Sequence record: MN781580
Reading direction: 5' to 3' (one strand)
Source: Shigella phage KRT47
DNA length: 64,000 nt
Notes under the pieces: generated by a model
What the model was told of the DNA's origin: nothing
Databases searched by the model: none
What the model saw: the letters and a program-made list of their open reading frames with translations, nothing else
Translations under genes and position numbers: made by a program
Shown: positions 4,335-9,642 of the stretch, piece after piece
Numbering within the stretch: position 1 is the first letter of the stretch
How the letters are laid out: the number at the start of each line of letters is the position of its first letter

Positions 4335-4594
4335 TATTTAAAACGAATAGTTGAATCCTTAAAGAACAGCCCAGAACATACTGTTCCTTCTACTTTCTGC
4401 CCGGTAGGTCCAATAGCACGAAATCCAGTATGTTGGAAATCATTTTCAGAGCAACCGAACCAGTTATATCCAGTGATTTCAATATTCGTAAAACCACTTG
4501 ATGATAAAATTTTAGTTGCATTATCAGCATCAGTACATCCTGCTAAAGACACTGCTAATACTAATGCTGCGATAGAACGATTAATATATTTCAT
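4334..4594 (-). CDS. Putative lipoprotein, 86 aa
   Basis: N-terminus MKYINRSIAALVLAVSLAGC has signal peptide plus lipobox (LAGC); ATG at 4592-4594. Confidence 0.55.
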   Translation of the reverse strand: MKYINRSIAALVLAVSLAGCTDADNATKILSSSGFTNIEITGYNWFGCSENDFQHTGFRAIGPTGQKVEGTVCSGLFFKDSTIRFK

Positions 4595-4598
4595 AATT

Positions 4599-4970
4599 TC
4601 ACTCAAATTTAATGGCTTGAAGAAGACTAATAATTCTCAAGCGACTTCTTTCATCTTTAACTGTAAAAGAAAGAGGGTCACCAGATTTCATAGTAATAGT
4701 ACATTCAAAATCAAAATCTTCTGTGACTTCTTCGAAGAAGTCAAATTCTTCAGCATAAATTAGAACATTACTCTGCATACTGTGAAGAATTTTTCCGTTA
4801 TTTCCAGACGCTGTACTAATCATCGTAACATTATGACCTTTCATATCTTCAACGATAAATTCGCTTGTAGATATTACAGCATTAATAGAACCATTCCTAT
4901 AAATAGCAGACATTAGATATTTCTTTTCTTCGCCTTCGCGAATACGATATTTCTTACCGATTTTAAACAT
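4599..4970 (-). CDS. Hypothetical protein, 123 aa
   Basis: ORF with ATG at 4968-4970 immediately after the stop of the upstream zinc-ribbon ORF. Confidence 0.5.
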   Translation of the reverse strand: MFKIGKKYRIREGEEKKYLMSAIYRNGSINAVISTSEFIVEDMKGHNVTMISTASGNNGKILHSMQSNVLIYAEEFDFFEEVTEDFDFECTITMKSGDPLSFTVKDERSRLRIISLLQAIKFE

Positions 4971-4972
4971 AA

Positions 4973-5149
4973 TCACCCTTTAAGTAAGTCGTAAAATCCG
5001 CCATTCACATGCTTAGGAGCAGAAGCCCGACGAGTAGACAAACGATGACATTTAGGGCAAACATCATTTTCTCGTTCAGAAATCTTTTTAATTTTTTCAT
5101 ATTCATGCCCGCAATCTTCGGATTGGCATTTATAATCATACATTGGCAT
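4973..5149 (-). CDS. Small zinc-ribbon protein, 58 aa (not in ORF track)
   Basis: Hand-translated MPMYDYKCQSEDCGH...CPKCHRLS with two Cys pairs; AAGGA SD before ATG at 5147-5149. Confidence 0.5.
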   Translation of the reverse strand: MPMYDYKCQSEDCGHEYEKIKKISERENDVCPKCHRLSTRRASAPKHVNGGFYDLLKG

Positions 5150-5151
5150 AA

Positions 5152-5577
5152 TTATTCCTTAAAATGAGCTTTCAGCATCTGATACAAGGACCATGCCTGT
5201 TCATTATTTTCAATAGTAACTTTCATGACAGGAAATTCTGTGAAATCTTCTATTTGTTCTTGCTCTTGCTCTTCCTGCTCTTGCTCTTCAGCTGCCTGAT
5301 ATGGATTTTCCACTTCATCAAAGAACTCAGCTTCGTTAGTAGAGAGCCAGATAAAGTTTTCGTCAAGGATATCACCATGTGTTGCATATCCAATTGTGCC
5401 AGTAAATGACATAATTTTAGTAGGACGACCAAGATGGTCAACATCTAAAATTTTAAAAGGATGCATACCTAAACGTCGTGCATAAATTCCGTTATCAGTA
5501 TGGTCTTTAATAAAAGCTTCTTGAGCTTGTTTATTTTTAAATTGATACCATTTATTAACTTCAAATTTAATAGCCAT
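5152..5577 (-). CDS. Hypothetical protein with acidic EQ-repeat tract, 141 aa (possibly goF-like by size and position)
   Basis: ATG at 5575-5577 overlapping upstream stop; identity to T4 goF not verified. Confidence 0.55.
5257..5289. repeat. Imperfect hexanucleotide repeat (CTCTTG/CTGCTC) encoding the [12 protein letters not shown] tract
   Basis: ttcttgctcttgctcttcctgctcttgctcttc read directly from the sequence. Confidence 0.6.
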
Positions 5578-5792
5578 TAATAAATTTCCTTCCAGTAAGT
5601 TGTGCCATCTTCAGTAATTTCACGAAATACACCGTAAATTGGTTGTTTATCACCAACCTTTTCATACACATAAACCGAAGTCAAGTGAGTAAACTTGATG
5701 GTGTGTTCCTTTTGAACCACTACCAAATCTGGGTCAAATAATACATCTTCAAATTCGTCATTAGTGCAATTCTGAACAATTTTACGTTTCAT
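5577..5792 (-). CDS. Small hypothetical protein, 71 aa (cef-like size and position)
   Basis: ATG at 5790-5792 with GAGGAAA SD. Confidence 0.5.
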
Positions 5793-5805
5793 TACAATTT
5801 CCTCA

Positions 5806-6075
5806 TTAATTGAACAGTGGAGCGATGCGTTTCAGAAGAGTAGCAGCACCTTTGGCGAATTTTACATCATGAAAAACAGTTTCTTCTTCCGTTACAACAC
5901 GAGCTTTAATGTTTTCACAATCCCAATTTTTGCGAACAATCTTCAAAAGCTGCAGTAAATCTTTACATTCAGCAATATCGATAACACATCCACGAGAATC
6001 TTCCATTATCGCACGATAACCGTAAGCCATACCATAATCATTGAAAGATTGCTCGATGATAATTAAATTTTCCAT
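5806..6075 (-). CDS. Hypothetical protein, 89 aa
   Basis: ATG at 6073-6075 with GGAG SD (track extends to an upstream TTG). Confidence 0.5.
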   Translation of the reverse strand: MENLIIIEQSFNDYGMAYGYRAIMEDSRGCVIDIAECKDLLQLLKIVRKNWDCENIKARVVTEEETVFHDVKFAKGAATLLKRIAPLFN

Positions 6076-6182
6076 TTTATTCTCCAAGTTGTTTTCTGTA
6101 TCAGTAGTTGATATTGATATAGTACCATAATCAACTACTGATGTATATAGTTTTATGAAAAAATTTTAAACTTTATGCAAAT

Positions 6183-6602
6183 TTATGCTAAAGCTGCTTC
6201 GCACCATTTTTTAATTTGGAATTCAGGAACTACCATGAACTGGCCTGCAAAAACAATATTGTAGAGCTTGACACCATCTTCTACCCAACGGTCCGAAATA
6301 AAACCAGCGACTTGATTCGTTGTCCATGGAGTTCCATCTGTTGCCGCCGCAATTGTGAATTTATGGTCTTTTACAACTAAAACTGAAGAACAAAGTTTCC
6401 ATTTAAATGCGCTTTCTTCTGGCTCAATGAACTGACTTGAGACATAACCGATGTTACCATCAGCGTCACGAACTTTAACCTCGTTACGACCAAAAACTGG
6501 ATCACTTACAGAAAGAACTTCAACCAGCTTTCCTGCAACTTTAGAACGAGAAGCAACGGATACATATACGTAATCACCAGTAGAGAGATTTACAATATTC
6601 AT
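6183..6602 (-). CDS. Hypothetical protein, 139 aa; member of a tandem paralog trio
   Basis: ATG at 6600-6602 with AAGGA SD; C-terminal motif shared with the 6612 and 7158 ORFs. Confidence 0.6.
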   Translation of the reverse strand: MNIVNLSTGDYVYVSVASRSKVAGKLVEVLSVSDPVFGRNEVKVRDADGNIGYVSSQFIEPEESAFKWKLCSSVLVVKDHKFTIAAATDGTPWTTNQVAGFISDRWVEDGVKLYNIVFAGQFMVVPEFQIKKWCEAALA

Positions 6603-6611
6603 AATAATTCC

Positions 6612-7085
6612 TTAAGCTTTACGAGGAGAAGCATAACGAGTGATTTCAGATTCTTCAACAACCCGGAAGTCACCTAAGAATACGATATTGTAGAGCTTTT
6701 CACCATCTTCAACCCATTGGTCTGTGATGAAGCCACACATCCTATCAGTTTTACTTGGACCAGCGAAATCATCAATATAATCGAATTCTTCATCAGTTAC
6801 AAATTCAACGCCTTTACACAACGCCCATTTAAATTGTGCATTAGACTCAGTGGATTCAACTTCTTCAACAGAAGCAAAATGAGAGCTAACACGAGTTTCC
6901 AGAAATTTAGGACTTACGTAAGCGTACTGAGTTTCAGTTTTTCCAGAACTAGGAATGATTCGAACTTTAACTTCTATAACACGACCAGTACCATTAGTAC
7001 GAAGTCCTACCACTTCAACTAGACGACCTGCAGCTTTAGAACGAGATGCAGACGATACACGCTTAATTTCACCGATAGTAATCAT
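6612..7085 (-). CDS. Hypothetical protein, 157 aa; paralog of the 6183 and 7158 ORFs
   Basis: ATG at 7083-7085; shares N-terminal SRSK.AG.LVEV and C-terminal TDQWVEDG..LYNIVF motifs. Confidence 0.6.
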   Translation of the reverse strand: MITIGEIKRVSSASRSKAAGRLVEVVGLRTNGTGRVIEVKVRIIPSSGKTETQYAYVSPKFLETRVSSHFASVEEVESTESNAQFKWALCKGVEFVTDEEFDYIDDFAGPSKTDRMCGFITDQWVEDGEKLYNIVFLGDFRVVEESEITRYASPRKA

Positions 7086-7157
7086 AATTTTTCTCTCTTT
7101 GTTGTTAAGATTTATTCTCCATGAGAGCCATTATAACAGGCTCTCTATAAAGTAAAC

Positions 7158-7652
7158 TTAATTAAGGATATTAATTACTGCACTACGTGGAACTACACTA
7201 AAATCACCTGCATGAACAACGTTCAGAAGTTCAACACCGTCTTCAATCCACTGATCAGTTACCCATCCACTCACTGGACCTGCGAACGGACGTCGAATTG
7301 AAACAGCTTTACACAACAAATCAGTAGGCTCAATAGGCTTAACCAGAGTACCGTACATACAAGCGATATCCATATCAATACAGATGTCTTTAACGGGTTC
7401 TACTTCTTCAATCAACAGTTCAAAGTCGGTGCTTGGAAGGGCGGTAGTAGAAATTGTACCGTATGAATTTTTAATTTCTAAGAATAACCAAGGGCCTTCA
7501 GCTTGTTTGATGAAGTTAACAATAGTGAAACTATTACCTTGAGTGGCGCCTAAAATTTCACAAAACTTTTCATAAGCTCGCACTGAAGCACCATACCAGT
7601 TGATTTGCTTTTCGTCTTTCAGGATGTAAGTAGCTGTAGTACTGATATTCAT
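7158..7652 (-). CDS. Hypothetical protein, 164 aa; paralog of the 6183 and 6612 ORFs
   Basis: ATG at 7650-7652 with AAGGGG SD; C-terminal WVTDQWIEDGVELLNVVHAGDF motif. Confidence 0.6.
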   Translation of the reverse strand: MNISTTATYILKDEKQINWYGASVRAYEKFCEILGATQGNSFTIVNFIKQAEGPWLFLEIKNSYGTISTTALPSTDFELLIEEVEPVKDICIDMDIACMYGTLVKPIEPTDLLCKAVSIRRPFAGPVSGWVTDQWIEDGVELLNVVHAGDFSVVPRSAVINILN

Positions 7653-7664
7653 GATGTTTTCCCC

Positions 7665-8168
7665 TTAATCTAAGGTAATAAAGCCTTTTAATTCGGCATG
7701 TGACTTGCGGAACATTACTTGATGACCGCCAATGATAACTTGGTCATCAGGTACTTCGTATACAGCGAGATAAAATCCTTTAGAAGCTAATTCTTCACGC
7801 TCTTCTCGTGTGAACCATCTCATCATATCATATTCGCTAGCGAAAGCAAAATGATAAAGAGCTATAAACCATCCTGGAATATAGTGATCTACGCCTACAT
7901 ATTCTTCTTTCTCAAAATTAGTATTAATTGCTATATTAGCATTTTTAACTAATAATTTGTCTTCGCGCGGAAGAGGAATTCTTTTGTTATCATTACTATG
8001 ATGCATAAAATTAGGTCTATCATAACCTACGTGTAATAACCACTCTTCGCTCCATGAATCTATTATACTCCTGTATGGCGTTATTTGAACACAAAGATTT
8101 CGACGTATTGTTATAGCATCTTCACAATTAAGAATACTAAAAGATGATTCAACACGATAAATTTTCAT
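7665..8168 (-). CDS. Hypothetical protein, 167 aa
   Basis: ATG at 8166-8168 with GAGGAT SD, downstream of an early promoter; track start is an upstream TTG. Confidence 0.55.
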   Translation of the reverse strand: MKIYRVESSFSILNCEDAITIRRNLCVQITPYRSIIDSWSEEWLLHVGYDRPNFMHHSNDNKRIPLPREDKLLVKNANIAINTNFEKEEYVGVDHYIPGWFIALYHFAFASEYDMMRWFTREEREELASKGFYLAVYEVPDDQVIIGGHQVMFRKSHAELKGFITLD

Positions 8169-8195
8169 TTTATTATCCTCAGTAGCTATGGTGTT

Positions 8196-8225
8196 ATAAT
8201 ACCACAACTAACCGAGGAAGTAAAC
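8196..8225 (-). promoter_or_regulatory. Early promoter (-35 GTTTAC, -10 TATTAT)
   Basis: Minus-strand GTTTAC at 8220-8225, 18-nt spacer, TATTAT at 8196-8201. Confidence 0.5.
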
Positions 8226-8231
8226 AACTTT

Positions 8232-8915
8232 TTATCGTTTTGTTGGAAGAGACAGAGGATCGCACTCTTCCTCTGACGGAGCATCTTCAAGACCCATAGC
8301 ATAGCGCAAAGCATACTTCATCATCAGGATGTCTTTCGCACAGTCATGAATAGAATCATGTGCAACGAATCCATCTAAAGTTCCCTTTGGAAGAGGACAT
8401 GTAGTCATATCACGAACAAGCAGAAGTGCTTCAATTCTGGTACGAATATCACGCTGATTCCAGAATTTACAAGGTTCTAACTTAAATGTATCAAGCTCAT
8501 TCTCGGAAACGCCGTTAAGACGTTGAATATCGCGAATGAGATCAACTAAAATAGGAAAATCAAACGACATTCCACGGCACCAACCTTGAGATTTCCAAGG
8601 ATCGATGTTATGTGCATTGATGTAATCATTAAATTTTGCAATACCATCGATAATGCTTACATCTTCATCGGATGGTGCAATATTTTTTCGAGCTTCAGGA
8701 GACTGATTTTTCCACCATTCGATAGTGCTTTTAGTAAAAAGACGATGTCCTTTTTGGCTTTTTAAATCAAATTTGATTTTAATGCCACGTGAAACTAATT
8801 CATCAAATGTTTCAACTACTTCTGGGTTAGGGTCAAAAGCAATTACAGCCAAATCAATAACAGCTGCTTTTTCACCGCTTCCCATTGTTTCAAAATCTAT
8901 AATAAAATCAAACAT
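8232..8915 (-). CDS. dexA: Exonuclease A (DnaQ-like 3'-5' exonuclease), 227 aa
   Basis: N-terminal DFET exonuclease motif; size and synteny match T4 dexA. Confidence 0.8.
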   Translation of the reverse strand: MFDFIIDFETMGSGEKAAVIDLAVIAFDPNPEVVETFDELVSRGIKIKFDLKSQKGHRLFTKSTIEWWKNQSPEARKNIAPSDEDVSIIDGIAKFNDYINAHNIDPWKSQGWCRGMSFDFPILVDLIRDIQRLNGVSENELDTFKLEPCKFWNQRDIRTRIEALLLVRDMTTCPLPKGTLDGFVAHDSIHDCAKDILMMKYALRYAMGLEDAPSEEECDPLSLPTKR

Positions 8916-9157
8916 TAAATTTTCCTCGCTAAATCACGAATTTGACCTACAGTATAGTCTTGAATATAAACTTTATTGATAGGCTCATCAATAAATTTTG
9001 CCATAGATTCAATGTCTTTTTGTATTTCTTCAAGACTGTATACTATCTTTAAAGCTTTTTCGCGAATAGTAATATTTTCAGGACCCTGATTTTCTTCAAT
9101 GACAGCTTTAACATTTGTCATAAGAGATTTAAATTGGTACCAACTTAATTCAATCAT
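8915..9157 (-). CDS. Small hypothetical protein, about 80 aa
   Basis: ATG at 9155-9157 has a GAGG SD (track ATG at 9172 has none); paralogous to the next ORF. Confidence 0.45.
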   Translation of the reverse strand: MIELSWYQFKSLMTNVKAVIEENQGPENITIREKALKIVYSLEEIQKDIESMAKFIDEPINKVYIQDYTVGQIRDLARKI

Positions 9158-9395
9158 TAATAATCGCCTCATAAAGATAGCTAATTTCGCCTAAAACATA
9201 ATCACTGATTGTGACAGTTTTCACTTCACCGCAAAAGAATTCTAACGCAATTAAATCTCGTTCAATTTCTTCTAATTGAAGCATCAACTTACTAGATTCA
9301 ATTTTTACAGTTTCACGATTTTTACCATGAGCAATTTCATAAATTTCACTCACTTTATCTTGAAGCAGATAAAACTGGTCTTTAGTTATTTCCAC
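9150..9395 (-). CDS. Small hypothetical protein, about 81 aa, probable GTG start
   Basis: GTG at 9393-9395 preceded by GAGGAAG; shares LEEI..D and DY..G motifs with the 8915 ORF. Confidence 0.45.
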   Translation of the reverse strand: MEITKDQFYLLQDKVSEIYEIAHGKNRETVKIESSKLMLQLEEIERDLIALEFFCGEVKTVTISDYVLGEISYLYEAIIND

Positions 9396-9642
9396 GAATA
9401 GCTTCCTCAAATTTAATCAGCAGCTTACAGACACTTTCATCTAGCGTAATTACCGTGTCTGTATTACTGTGATATGATTGTTTTTCAATTCGTTTAATTG
9501 CTAGTATAGTATCACTTATAAGATTAAGCTTATAAAGGAGCTCAGCTCCTGTTATCATAACACTGAGGTTATCTTGCTTATCAGTATGCTTCTTTATACC
9601 ATCTATTAGACGATTTAAATATTTTGAATTGATGTTAATCAT
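9382..9642 (-). CDS. Small hypothetical protein, 86 aa
   Basis: ATG at 9640-9642 with GAGGA SD. Confidence 0.5.
   Translation of the reverse strand: MININSKYLNRLIDGIKKHTDKQDNLSVMITGAELLYKLNLISDTILAIKRIEKQSYHSNTDTVITLDESVCKLLIKFEEAIRGNN

What the first reader, a model, noticed from the sequence alone, without database searches (positions are those of the whole stretch)
6183..7652. Three tandem paralogs sharing a conserved C-terminal motif
Consecutive genes of 139, 157 and 164 aa share a C-terminal block (G[FW][IV][ST]D[QR]W[VI]EDG.[KE]L[YL]N[IV]VF.G.F.VV), and two share an N-terminal SRSK.AG.LVEV segment. The N-terminal part could be a small beta-barrel nucleic-acid-binding domain. Tandem triplication in an early operon suggests a family of host-directed regulators under diversification.
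Basis: partly seen in the sequence, partly recalled or inferred. Interest (0 to 1): 0.55.

Follow-up and report, generated by a model that had tools for sequence, protein, structure and literature searches.

The report
Known MotB/MotB.1 phage gene family
The three neighbouring genes are real relatives of one another. They are the already described MotB / MotB.1 family of T4-like phages: small early proteins, one of which (T4 MotB) coats DNA and disturbs the host silencer H-NS, so the finding is correct but ordinary.

Summary
On the minus strand, 6183-6602 (139 aa), 6612-7085 (157 aa) and 7158-7652 (164 aa) share a C-terminal domain, and the first two also share the N-terminal domain. All three pass the gathering score of Pfam PF17613 (motB).

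The window is a Tequatrovirus, 99.3% identical to Shigella phage Sf23. The 157-aa gene is motB, of the RB69 type and 46% identical to T4 MotB. The 164-aa gene is motB.1. The 139-aa gene is an old second motB copy that T4 lacks; 207 of 773 phage records carry it.

All of this is published: Patterson-West 2021 (shared C-terminal domain, different N-terminal domains, extra copies in some phages) and Kim 2025 (MotB.1 N-terminal domain with an LSm-like fold).

Both AlphaFold2 models consist of small SH3-like barrels joined by a disordered linker.

New side results:
- The genes are under purifying selection, with dN/dS of 0.07-0.35.
- The three-gene block is shared with Mosigvirus at far lower dS than its flanking genes.
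- Natural chimeras swap the two domains at the linker.
- The 119-aa MotB.1 of the T4 reference comes from a 1-nt frameshift seen only in AF158101/NC_000866.

Novelty: already known. Interest: low.

The parts
6183..6602 (-). 139-aa second MotB paralog (= RB51ncORF010c). T4 lacks it; Mosigvirus and a subset of Tequatrovirus carry it.
   Evidence: ORF. Pfam motB 72.1 bits. phrog_1671 at 1e-50. RB51 annotation 'similar to motB'. At least 80% identical copies in 207 of 773 phage records, with nothing between 60 and 80%.
6423..6602 (-). N-terminal KOW/SH3-like domain of the 139-aa paralog (residues 1-60), with the SRSKVAGKLVEV motif. Net charge -1.
   Evidence: Alignment with MotB. Charge. Weak Pfam SH3_3 and OB hits.
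6186..6407 (-). Shared C-terminal domain of the 139-aa paralog (residues 66-139).
   Evidence: It matches the C-terminal-domain profile; the 139-aa cluster representative P0228 scores 1.1e-25.
6612..7085 (-). motB ortholog, RB69 type, 157 aa.
   Evidence: Pfam motB 140.4 bits over the full length. 85% identical to RB69 MotB and 46% to T4 MotB. Inside the RB69-type clade in 50 of 50 bootstraps.
6897..7085 (-). MotB N-terminal KOW/SH3-like barrel (residues 1-63). Basic, net +6.
   Evidence: AF2 strands 7-10, 22-30, 36-43 and 53-57 with pLDDT 84-90. Charge.
6834..6896 (-). MotB acidic disordered linker (residues 64-84). Its length varies from 0 to about 45 residues across homologs.
   Evidence: pLDDT below 50 for residues 66-82. 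Alignment A2.
6615..6833 (-). MotB shared C-terminal five-strand barrel (residues 85-157). Acidic, net -7.
   Evidence: AF2 strands 92-105, 109-126, 129-136, 139-144 and 148-151. Charge.
7158..7652 (-). motB.1 ortholog, 164 aa.
   Evidence: phrog_2333 at 1e-82 and Pfam motB 35.0 bits on residues 84-159. RB51 motB.1 lies at the same position. 46% identical to the intact T4 MotB.1, P0120.
7398..7652 (-). MotB.1 N-terminal domain (residues 1-85). It differs from the MotB N-terminal domain and belongs to the published LSm-like/SH3-like GoF-Frd.2-MotB.1 group.
   Evidence: AF2 elements E8-11, H26-37, E42-49, E55-61, E67-73, H74-79 and E80-82. PMC12152347.
7329..7397 (-). MotB.1 disordered linker (residues 86-108). 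It holds the short motif DMDIACMYGTLVKP (window 7335-7376), which sits at the N-terminus in other MotB.1 variants.
   Evidence: pLDDT below 50 for residues 86-107. Alignment A3.
7161..7328 (-). MotB.1 shared C-terminal barrel (residues 109-164), the most conserved part of the family: PTDLL...GWVTDQWIEDGVELLNVVH.
   Evidence: 23 invariant columns lie in this stretch of A3. AF2 strands 116-119, 127-137, 140-147, 150-155 and 159-163.
7117..7157 (-). motB.1-motB intergenic element: GTTTAC (7157-7152) and TATAAT (7135-7130), resembling a T4 early promoter, overlapped by the stem-loop GAGAGCC/GGCTCTC (7145-7139 / 7129-7123).
   Evidence: Sequence. RNA fold -17 kcal/mol, z -3.3. T4 has GTTTAC...TATAAT and a stem-loop with a different stem sequence at the same place. 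Function was not tested, and the generic promoter scan found no more sites than chance.

Best explanation
The three genes are the motB.1 - motB - second-motB block of a T4-like phage. The window is a Tequatrovirus of the RB51/Sf23 group.

Each protein is a pair of small beta-barrels joined by a flexible linker. The 157-aa MotB and the 139-aa paralog have a KOW/SH3-like N-terminal barrel carrying the SRSKAAG loop. MotB.1 has a different N-terminal domain of the GoF type (LSm-like/SH3-like). All three end in the same five-strand SH3/Tudor-like barrel with the invariant D-x-W-x-E-x-G-x-x-L-x-N-x-V core.

Inferred from the characterised T4 ortholog: the MotB-type proteins are made early, bind double-stranded DNA without sequence preference, co-occupy DNA with H-NS/StpA and change how H-NS sits on it. 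This relieves H-NS silencing and raises burst size about two-fold.

My further inference: DNA contact comes mainly from the basic KOW-like N-terminal domain. The shared C-terminal barrel is a common protein-contact or self-association module. Its net charge ranges from -7 to +2 while its acidic, aromatic core stays invariant. Different N-terminal 'heads' have been attached to it repeatedly.

Shown here: homology, domain layout, predicted folds, purifying selection and modular recombination. Inferred: DNA binding, the H-NS effect and the role of the C-terminal domain.
For: Family membership:
- Pfam PF17613 scores above cut-off for all three.
- PHROG 1671 and 2333 hits.
- Synteny with T4 and RB51 motB and motB.1, between dexA/motB.2 and cef.
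- BLASTP to T4 MotB: 1e-47 for the 157-aa protein and 3e-25 for the 139-aa protein.

Fold:
- AF2 mean pLDDT is 81.6 and 79.2, with two structured beta domains and a disordered linker.
- Distant members (P0243, P0248, P0251) carry a canonical KOW motif (GKxVxVxxGKxxG) in front of the same C-terminal domain.

Function of the T4 ortholog: non-specific DNA binding, toxicity, copurification with H-NS/StpA, a two-fold burst-size effect, an altered H-NS footprint, and 75 host genes up-regulated of which about 30% are in the H-NS regulon (PMC6070864; PMC7827196).

Modularity:
- The C-terminal domain of the MotB.1-type proteins is 75-86% identical across N-terminal domains of at least four kinds.
- Chimeras exist: P0104 has a T4-type N-terminal domain (97%) with a 139-type C-terminal domain (95%) and occurs on 5 contigs, the 3 shown from 3 different samples. 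P0034 and P0036 are further examples.

Other points:
- Selection: dN/dS is 0.07-0.35 for all three genes.
- Charge: the window's MotB N-terminal domain is +6 and its C-terminal domain is -7.
Against: - None of the three window proteins has been assayed. The window's MotB is only 46% identical to T4 MotB and is acidic overall (pI 5.2, against 9.2 for T4 MotB).
- The 139-aa paralog has lost the net positive charge of the N-terminal domain (-1). Strong non-specific DNA binding may therefore not carry over to it.
- Deleting T4 motB.1 gave no phenotype, and MotB.1 had no effect in an RNA reporter assay (PMC12152347).
- The published HHpred work calls the C-terminal domain an OB-fold and allows that either domain binds DNA.
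- No test of C-terminal-domain self-association or of partner binding was possible here.
Confidence: 0.6

Rival explanations
1. The shared C-terminal domain is the DNA-binding module (an OB-fold, as proposed from HHpred). The variable N-terminal domains recruit different partners. All three proteins would then be DNA binders.
For: The published HHpred assignment places the MotB C-terminal domain in the cold-shock/eIF5A OB family (PMC7827196). The C-terminal domain is the only part common to all members and is the most conserved. The C-terminal domain of T4 MotB is mildly basic (+2).
Confidence: 0.2
2. MotB.1 acts on RNA through its LSm-like N-terminal domain, as a GoF-type RNA modulator, and is functionally unrelated to the MotB pair. 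The shared C-terminal domain would be only an inherited scaffold.
For: The MotB.1 N-terminal domain groups structurally with GoF, Frd.2 and Hfq-like folds, and GoF(D25Y) stabilises gene 41 mRNA (PMC12152347). The N-terminal domain of the window's MotB.1 is acidic, which is atypical for a non-specific DNA binder.
Against: Wild-type GoF and MotB.1 had no effect in the RNA reporter. The experiments appear to have used the 119-aa form (13.8 kDa), which lacks half of the C-terminal domain, so the negative result is weak either way. Strong conservation of the C-terminal domain across many N-terminal types argues that it is functional and not a mere scaffold.
Confidence: 0.15
3. The block is an accessory counter-defence or host-range cassette. 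The proteins would act as decoys or inhibitors of a host factor other than H-NS, which would explain the horizontal exchange and allele swapping.
For: The block lies in a dispensable early region. It moved as a unit between Mosigvirus and Tequatrovirus: cassette dS is 0.08-1.0, against 2.0-2.4 for the flanking dexA. Alleles and domains are shuffled.
Against: There is no direct evidence for this. No NCBIfam family was found. The genes evolve under purifying selection without the elevated dN/dS often seen at host-interaction surfaces. The T4 ortholog's documented activity is DNA and H-NS related.
Confidence: 0.1

Closest known systems
T4 MotB (Pfam PF17613; phrog_1671): early non-specific DNA-binding, nucleoid-associated-like protein that alters H-NS binding
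   Same: The 157-aa and 139-aa proteins have the same two-domain layout (KOW-like N-terminal domain with SRSKAAG, then the conserved C-terminal barrel), the same genomic slot and full-length homology to T4 MotB (1e-47 and 3e-25).
   Different: They are only 46% and 37% identical to T4 MotB. The window's MotB is of the RB69 type and acidic overall (pI 5.2 against 9.2). The 139-aa copy has almost no linker, a non-basic N-terminal domain and no T4 counterpart.
T4 MotB.1 (phrog_2333; 'Category 2' of Patterson-West 2021; LSm-like fold family of Kim 2025)
   Same: The 164-aa protein lies immediately upstream of motB, has a MotB-type C-terminal domain and is 46% identical to the intact 143-aa T4 MotB.1.
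   Different: It has about 22 extra linker residues that include the DMDIACMYGTLVKP motif. The T4 reference annotation (119 aa) is cut inside the C-terminal domain by a 1-nt frameshift, whereas the window's gene is intact.
RB69 / Mosigvirus motB.1-motB-motB2 block
   Same: Same three genes in the same order. Window 6178-7666 aligns as one block at 83-88% nt identity. MotB.1 is up to 97.6% identical at the protein level to that of phage JK36.
   Different: In Mosigvirus the motB.2-like gene lies downstream of the block rather than upstream. The rest of the window's genome is Tequatrovirus (dexA is 99.6% identical in protein to T4 but 67% to Mosigvirus).
KOW / Tudor / chromo 'SH3-like small beta-barrel' domains (NusG, Spt5, 53BP1)
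   Different: Pfam lists no KOW or Tudor family for these proteins at E up to 1. Sequence identity to the structural matches is 9-19%. This is a resemblance of fold and not evidence of family membership or of a methyl-lysine-reader function.

Membership tests
MotB family (Pfam PF17613) | Whole-protein score above the Pfam gathering score (25 bits) | tested here: met
   72.1 bits (139 aa), 140.4 bits (157 aa) and 35.0 bits (164 aa).
MotB family (Pfam PF17613) | Conserved C-terminal core G[FWY][IV][ST]D[QR]W[VI]E.G..L.N.V | tested here: met
   Present in all three. D, W, E, G, L, N, V, G and V are invariant across 21 diverse C-terminal domains.
MotB family (Pfam PF17613) | Location in the dexA-to-cef early, dispensable region of Tevenvirinae | tested here: met
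   Gene order dda-dexA-motB.2-motB.1-motB-paralog-ORF009c-cef-goF, matching RB51 and T4.
MotB proper (Category 1 of PMC7827196; phrog_1671) | KOW-like N-terminal domain with the SRSKAAG motif plus the C-terminal domain, homologous over the full length | tested here: met
   Met for the 157-aa (1.1e-67) and 139-aa (9.8e-51) proteins. Not met for the 164-aa protein, which matches phrog_1671 over residues 111-162 only.
MotB proper | Tight non-specific dsDNA binding, copurification with H-NS/StpA, toxicity in E. coli | not testable with these tools
   Known only for T4 MotB (PMC6070864, PMC7827196). The charge profile of the window proteins differs.
MotB.1 subfamily (phrog_2333) | Full-length match to the MotB.1 profile and position directly upstream of motB | tested here: met
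   phrog_2333 at 1.1e-82 over residues 1-164. Position as in RB51 and T4.
MotB.1 subfamily / LSm-like fold family (GoF, Frd.2, MotB.1) | N-terminal bent five-stranded antiparallel sheet (LSm-like/SH3-like) | tested here: inconclusive
KOW domain (Pfam PF00467) | Sequence match to the KOW profile | tested here: not met
OB-fold, cold-shock/eIF5A-like (published proposal for the C-terminal domain) | Five-strand OB topology of the C-terminal domain | tested here: inconclusive

The most novel reading that the evidence does not exclude
The three genes work as one unit. The shared Tudor/SH3-like C-terminal barrel would be a homo- and hetero-oligomerisation module that joins two DNA-binding KOW heads (MotB and its paralog) and one RNA/LSm-like head (MotB.1) into a mixed phage 'chromatin' complex that displaces H-NS. 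This would explain why the block is inherited and horizontally exchanged as a unit between phage genera, and why N-terminal heads are freely swapped onto a nearly invariant C-terminal domain.
Probability: 0.12. Interest if true: 0.5.

Novelty: already known. Interest (0 to 1): 0.18.

Why it matters
As stated, the finding adds nothing to the literature. The MotB/MotB.1 relationship, the differing N-terminal domains and the extra copies in some phages were published in 2021, and the genes are routinely annotated as 'MotB-like'.

The side results are useful mainly to T4 specialists:
- The reference T4 MotB.1 (119 aa, 13.8 kDa) used in recent functional work seems to be a frameshift artefact of AF158101/NC_000866. 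The real protein would be 143 aa with a complete C-terminal domain, so negative results for MotB.1 may need repeating.
- The RB69-type MotB is acidic overall, so T4 MotB biochemistry should not be transferred to it blindly.
- The family evolves by exchange of whole domains and of the whole block, which makes it a convenient natural system for asking what the invariant C-terminal barrel does.

Tried and rejected
- The generic sigma-70 promoter and terminator scan of 5500-9000 gave 16 sites against 14.1 expected. It is not informative.
- Rfam at the gathering threshold on 4500-9500 found nothing.
- NCBIfam on the three proteins and on the 101-aa antisense ORF (6717-7022, + strand) found nothing. 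The plus-strand ORFs in the region are short and unsupported, and I treat them as non-coding.
- The PDB sequence search with MotB gave no hit at E up to 1.
- BLASTP of the MotB.1 N-terminal domain against the window's GoF gave no similarity.
- I considered a recent tandem triplication and rejected it. The 139/157 pair is 40% identical, and the 139-aa lineage lies outside all canonical MotBs.
- I considered positive diversifying selection and rejected it at the whole-gene level, since dN/dS is 0.07-0.35. Site-specific tests were not run.
- I considered that the chimeric MotBs are assembly artefacts. This is rejected for P0104, which is carried by 5 contigs; the 3 shown come from 3 different samples and have consistent gene context. 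It stays open for P0036, which has a single contig.
- Weak hits of the C-terminal-domain profile in 600-860-aa proteins, with 4-7 short stretches each (P0246, P0247, P0249, P0250; E 4.5e-5 to 6.2e-4), match only profile positions 19-43. I set them aside as probably repeat-like and unrelated, but I did not fetch or inspect their sequences.
- Two Python calls failed, one on a file path and one on the time limit. Both were rerun.

Full report
**1. What is there**

The window is a T4-like phage. Region 5500-8300 is 99.3% identical to Shigella phage Sf23 and 99.2% to Escherichia phage teqhad, both annotated Tequatrovirus genomes of the RB51 group.

The genes lie on the minus strand in this order:
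- gp39 (fused 60+39)
- 39.1
- ORF005c
- 39.2
- goF
- cef
- ORF009c
- a 139-aa ORF (6183-6602)
- a 157-aa ORF (6612-7085)
- a 164-aa ORF (7158-7652)
- motB.2
- dexA
- dda

All three ORFs of the finding have Shine-Dalgarno-like sequences. The 157- and 139-aa genes are only 9 nt apart.

Yes.
- Pairwise BLASTP gives E=4e-29 for 139 vs 157 (full length, 40% identity), 1e-11 for 157 vs 164 and 6e-11 for 139 vs 164. The last two matches cover the C-terminal 29-42 residues only.
- All three exceed the gathering score of Pfam PF17613 'motB', with 72.1, 140.4 and 35.0 bits against 25.
- PHROGs places the 139- and 157-aa proteins in phrog_1671 (MotB-like). The 164-aa protein goes to phrog_2333, with a secondary hit to phrog_1671 on its C-terminus.

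**3. Identity of the genes**

In RB51 the same three genes are annotated RB51ncORF010c ('similar to motB'), motB and motB.1. T4 has motB and motB.1 but no equivalent of the 139-aa gene.

- The 157-aa protein is 46% identical to T4 MotB (1e-47) and 85% identical to RB69 MotB.
- The 139-aa protein is 37% identical to T4 MotB (3e-25).
- In a neighbour-joining tree the canonical MotBs (T4, RB69 and JS98 types) form a clade that excludes the 139-aa lineage in 47 of 50 bootstraps. The window's 157-aa protein sits inside the RB69-type clade in 50 of 50.

The 139/157 pair is therefore an old duplication and not a recent tandem copy. Copies at least 80% identical to the 139-aa gene occur in 207 of 773 MotB-bearing phage records. 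Nothing falls between 60 and 80%.

**4. What is already published**

Patterson-West et al. 2018 (PMC6070864) showed the following for T4 MotB:
- It is an early protein.
- It is toxic in E. coli.
- It binds unmodified and glucosyl-hydroxymethylated DNA without sequence specificity.
- It copurifies with H-NS and StpA.
- It doubles burst size.
- Its knockdown hardly changes T4 transcription.

Patterson-West et al. 2021 (PMC7827196) reported the following:
- HHpred predicts a KOW-like N-terminal domain and an OB-fold-like C-terminal domain.
- MotB and MotB.1 share the C-terminal domain but have different N-terminal domains.
- Homologs fall into four categories.
- Several phages carry extra copies; RB69 has two motB, one motB.1 and a 29-aa remnant.
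- MotB changes the H-NS footprint.

Kim et al. 2025 (PMC12152347) placed the MotB.1 N-terminal domain with GoF and Frd.2 in an LSm-like/SH3-like fold family. They found no phenotype for a motB.1 deletion.

**5. Structure**

- AlphaFold2 on a 31-sequence alignment gives MotB (157 aa) a mean pLDDT of 81.6. The model has an N-terminal four-strand domain (residues 7-57), a disordered acidic linker (66-82, pLDDT below 50) and a five-strand C-terminal domain (92-151).
- MotB.1 (164 aa, 26 sequences) has a mean pLDDT of 79.2. It has an N-terminal domain (8-82), a disordered linker (86-107) and a five-strand C-terminal domain (116-163).
- No Pfam KOW hit was listed at E up to 1. Remote family members found with a C-terminal-domain profile do carry a canonical KOW pattern (P0243, P0248, P0251).
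- The family is narrow. Only 32 of 1.84 billion cluster representatives reach E of 1e-3 or better, and 23 reach 1e-10 or better.

**6. Evolution**

- Whole-gene dN/dS between the window and RB51 or three Mosigvirus phages is 0.07-0.35 for all three genes, so selection is purifying.
- The block at window 6178-7666 aligns as a single segment at 83-88% nt identity to the Mosigvirus loci. The flanking dda, dexA and gp39 align at 69-74%.
- dS is 0.08-0.34 for motB.1, 0.5-1.0 for motB and 0.60-0.66 for the paralog. For dexA it is 2.0-2.4, and for cef it is saturated.
- The window's motB.1 is 97.6% identical in nucleotides to that of Mosigvirus JK36 but only 78% to RB51.
- The block, and motB.1 separately, have therefore been exchanged between genera.
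- Natural chimeras join N- and C-terminal domains of different types at the linker:
  - P0104 has a T4-type N-terminal domain (97%) and a 139-type C-terminal domain (95%).
  - P0034 has a T4-type N-terminal domain (98%) and a 157-type C-terminal domain (93%).
  - P0036 has a 157-type N-terminal domain (87%) and a 139-type C-terminal domain (89%).
- P0104 is on 5 contigs. The 3 shown come from 3 different samples, and in them it is the only MotB-type (KOW-head) gene next to a 181-aa gene that also hits PF17613 and by position and length is probably a motB.1 variant (sequence not inspected). This fits a fusion between the tandem paralogs.
- In the MotB.1 branch the C-terminal domain is 75-86% identical across at least four different N-terminal architectures, one of them KOW-like (P0165, P0205).

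**7. Mechanism (inferred)**

By homology, the MotB-type proteins most likely coat DNA and remodel H-NS-DNA complexes early in infection.

Charges suggest a division of labour:

| Protein | pI | Net charge |
|---|---|---|
| T4 MotB | 9.2 | +6 overall |
| Window 157-aa MotB | 5.2 | N-terminal domain +6, C-terminal domain -7 |
| Window 139-aa paralog | 5.4 | N-terminal domain -1, C-terminal domain +1 |
| Window MotB.1 | 4.5 | -9 overall |

The invariant C-terminal core (DQW[VI]EDG) is acidic and aromatic. I therefore favour the N-terminal domain as the nucleic-acid-binding head. The C-terminal domain would be a conserved protein-contact or self-association module. The published alternative, DNA binding by an OB-like C-terminal domain, is not excluded. 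The same numbers warn that T4 MotB biochemistry may not transfer fully to the RB69-type MotB or to the 139-aa paralog.

**8. Side finding on T4**

- The T4 reference MotB.1 (119 aa) ends ...GWVTDQWIGRWR*. The missing tail, EDGVELLNVVHAGEYSVVPRSAVVAILN*, is encoded in the next frame directly downstream.
- The cause is a single extra G: ATTGGAAGATGG in T4 against ATTGAAGATGG elsewhere.
- P0120 is a 143-aa protein identical to the T4 protein through ...GWVTDQWI, followed by that tail. It is recorded on 256 contigs.
- In the phage collection, 11 other T4/T4T records plus RB55 and RB59 encode the intact 143-aa protein in one piece. Only AF158101.6 and its RefSeq copy NC_000866.4 need two pieces.
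- Neither paper mentions this. The 2025 paper quotes 13.8 kDa, which is the 119-aa mass.

**9. Verdict**

It is imprecise on 'triplication' and 'diversification'. The feature belongs to a known, named and partly characterised family, so novelty is 'already known' and interest is low.

Noticed in passing
L002:3143-3330 (T4 NC_000866.4, about 7221-7650); compare window 7161-7250: The T4 reference motB.1 (119 aa) is truncated inside the conserved C-terminal domain by a 1-nt insertion, and the rest of the domain is encoded in the next frame. Eleven other T4/T4T records plus RB55 and RB59 encode an intact 143-aa protein. Only AF158101.6 and NC_000866.4 show the frameshift, so it is probably a reference-sequence error. 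Published MotB.1 work quotes the 119-aa mass.
   Followed up: yes
window 6178-7666 vs L003-L005: The three-gene block aligns as one segment at 83-88% nt identity to Mosigvirus phages, while the flanking dda, dexA and gp39 align at 69-74%. dS is 0.08-1.0 in the block and 2.0-2.4 in dexA. The block was therefore exchanged between genera.
   Followed up: yes
L006:3001-3492, L007:2199-2690, L008:37-528, L009:1373-1894: Natural chimeric motB genes occur as the only MotB-type (KOW-head) gene in their contigs: a T4-type or RB69-type N-terminal domain fused to the 139-type C-terminal domain. This fits recombination between the tandem paralogs at the linker.
   Followed up: partly
window 7335-7376 (- strand; MotB.1 residues 93-106): The short motif DMDIACMYGTLVKP lies in the disordered linker of MotB.1. 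The same motif sits at the extreme N-terminus of other MotB.1 variants (P0141, P0145, P0150) and in KOW-headed variants (P0165, P0205). It looks like a movable short linear motif, and its function is unknown.
   Followed up: partly
window 7117-7157 (- strand); L002:3160-3215: A stem-loop between motB.1 and motB has TATAAT in its loop, and GTTTAC lies just upstream. T4 has the same arrangement with a different stem sequence (GAGAGCC/GGCTCTC against GGGACC/GGTCCC). The RNA folds have z-scores of -3.3 and -4.1. It may be a promoter, an RNA element, or both.
   Followed up: partly
window 6100-6142 (- strand): A perfect 13-bp inverted repeat (ATCAGTAGTTGAT ... ATCAACTACTGAT) lies downstream of the 139-aa gene and upstream of ORF009c. 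The RNA fold of the 95-nt intergenic region that contains it is -20.7 kcal/mol with z -4.6, and no T-run follows the hairpin.
   Followed up: partly
window 4599-4976 and 5152-5577 (- strand): ORF005c (125 aa) and GoF (141 aa) show a weak collinear N-terminal similarity: 22% identity over 87 aa, E 0.035, both ending ...F(D)FFEEV / ...EFFDEV. This fits the published GoF/Frd.2/MotB.1 LSm-like fold family and suggests one more member in this window.
   Followed up: partly
window 6612-7085 vs T4 motB: The RB69-type MotB is acidic overall (pI 5.2, C-terminal domain net -7), whereas T4 MotB is basic (pI 9.2). The 139-aa paralog has a non-basic N-terminal domain. DNA-binding strength may differ among alleles.
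   Followed up: partly
P0244 (metagenomic, 43 aa): A 43-aa ORF joins the first 13 residues of motB.2 (MKIYRVESSFSIL) to the last 28 residues of the MotB.1 C-terminal domain. It is a deletion remnant analogous to the 29-aa RB69 peptide of the 2021 paper and shows that the locus is prone to deletions.
   Followed up: no
window 7665-8207 (- strand): The mechanical ORF for motB.2 starts at a TTG (180 aa). The RB51 (167 aa) and T4 (166 aa) annotations and the sequence MKIYRVESS... suggest that the real start is the ATG 13 codons downstream.
   Followed up: no
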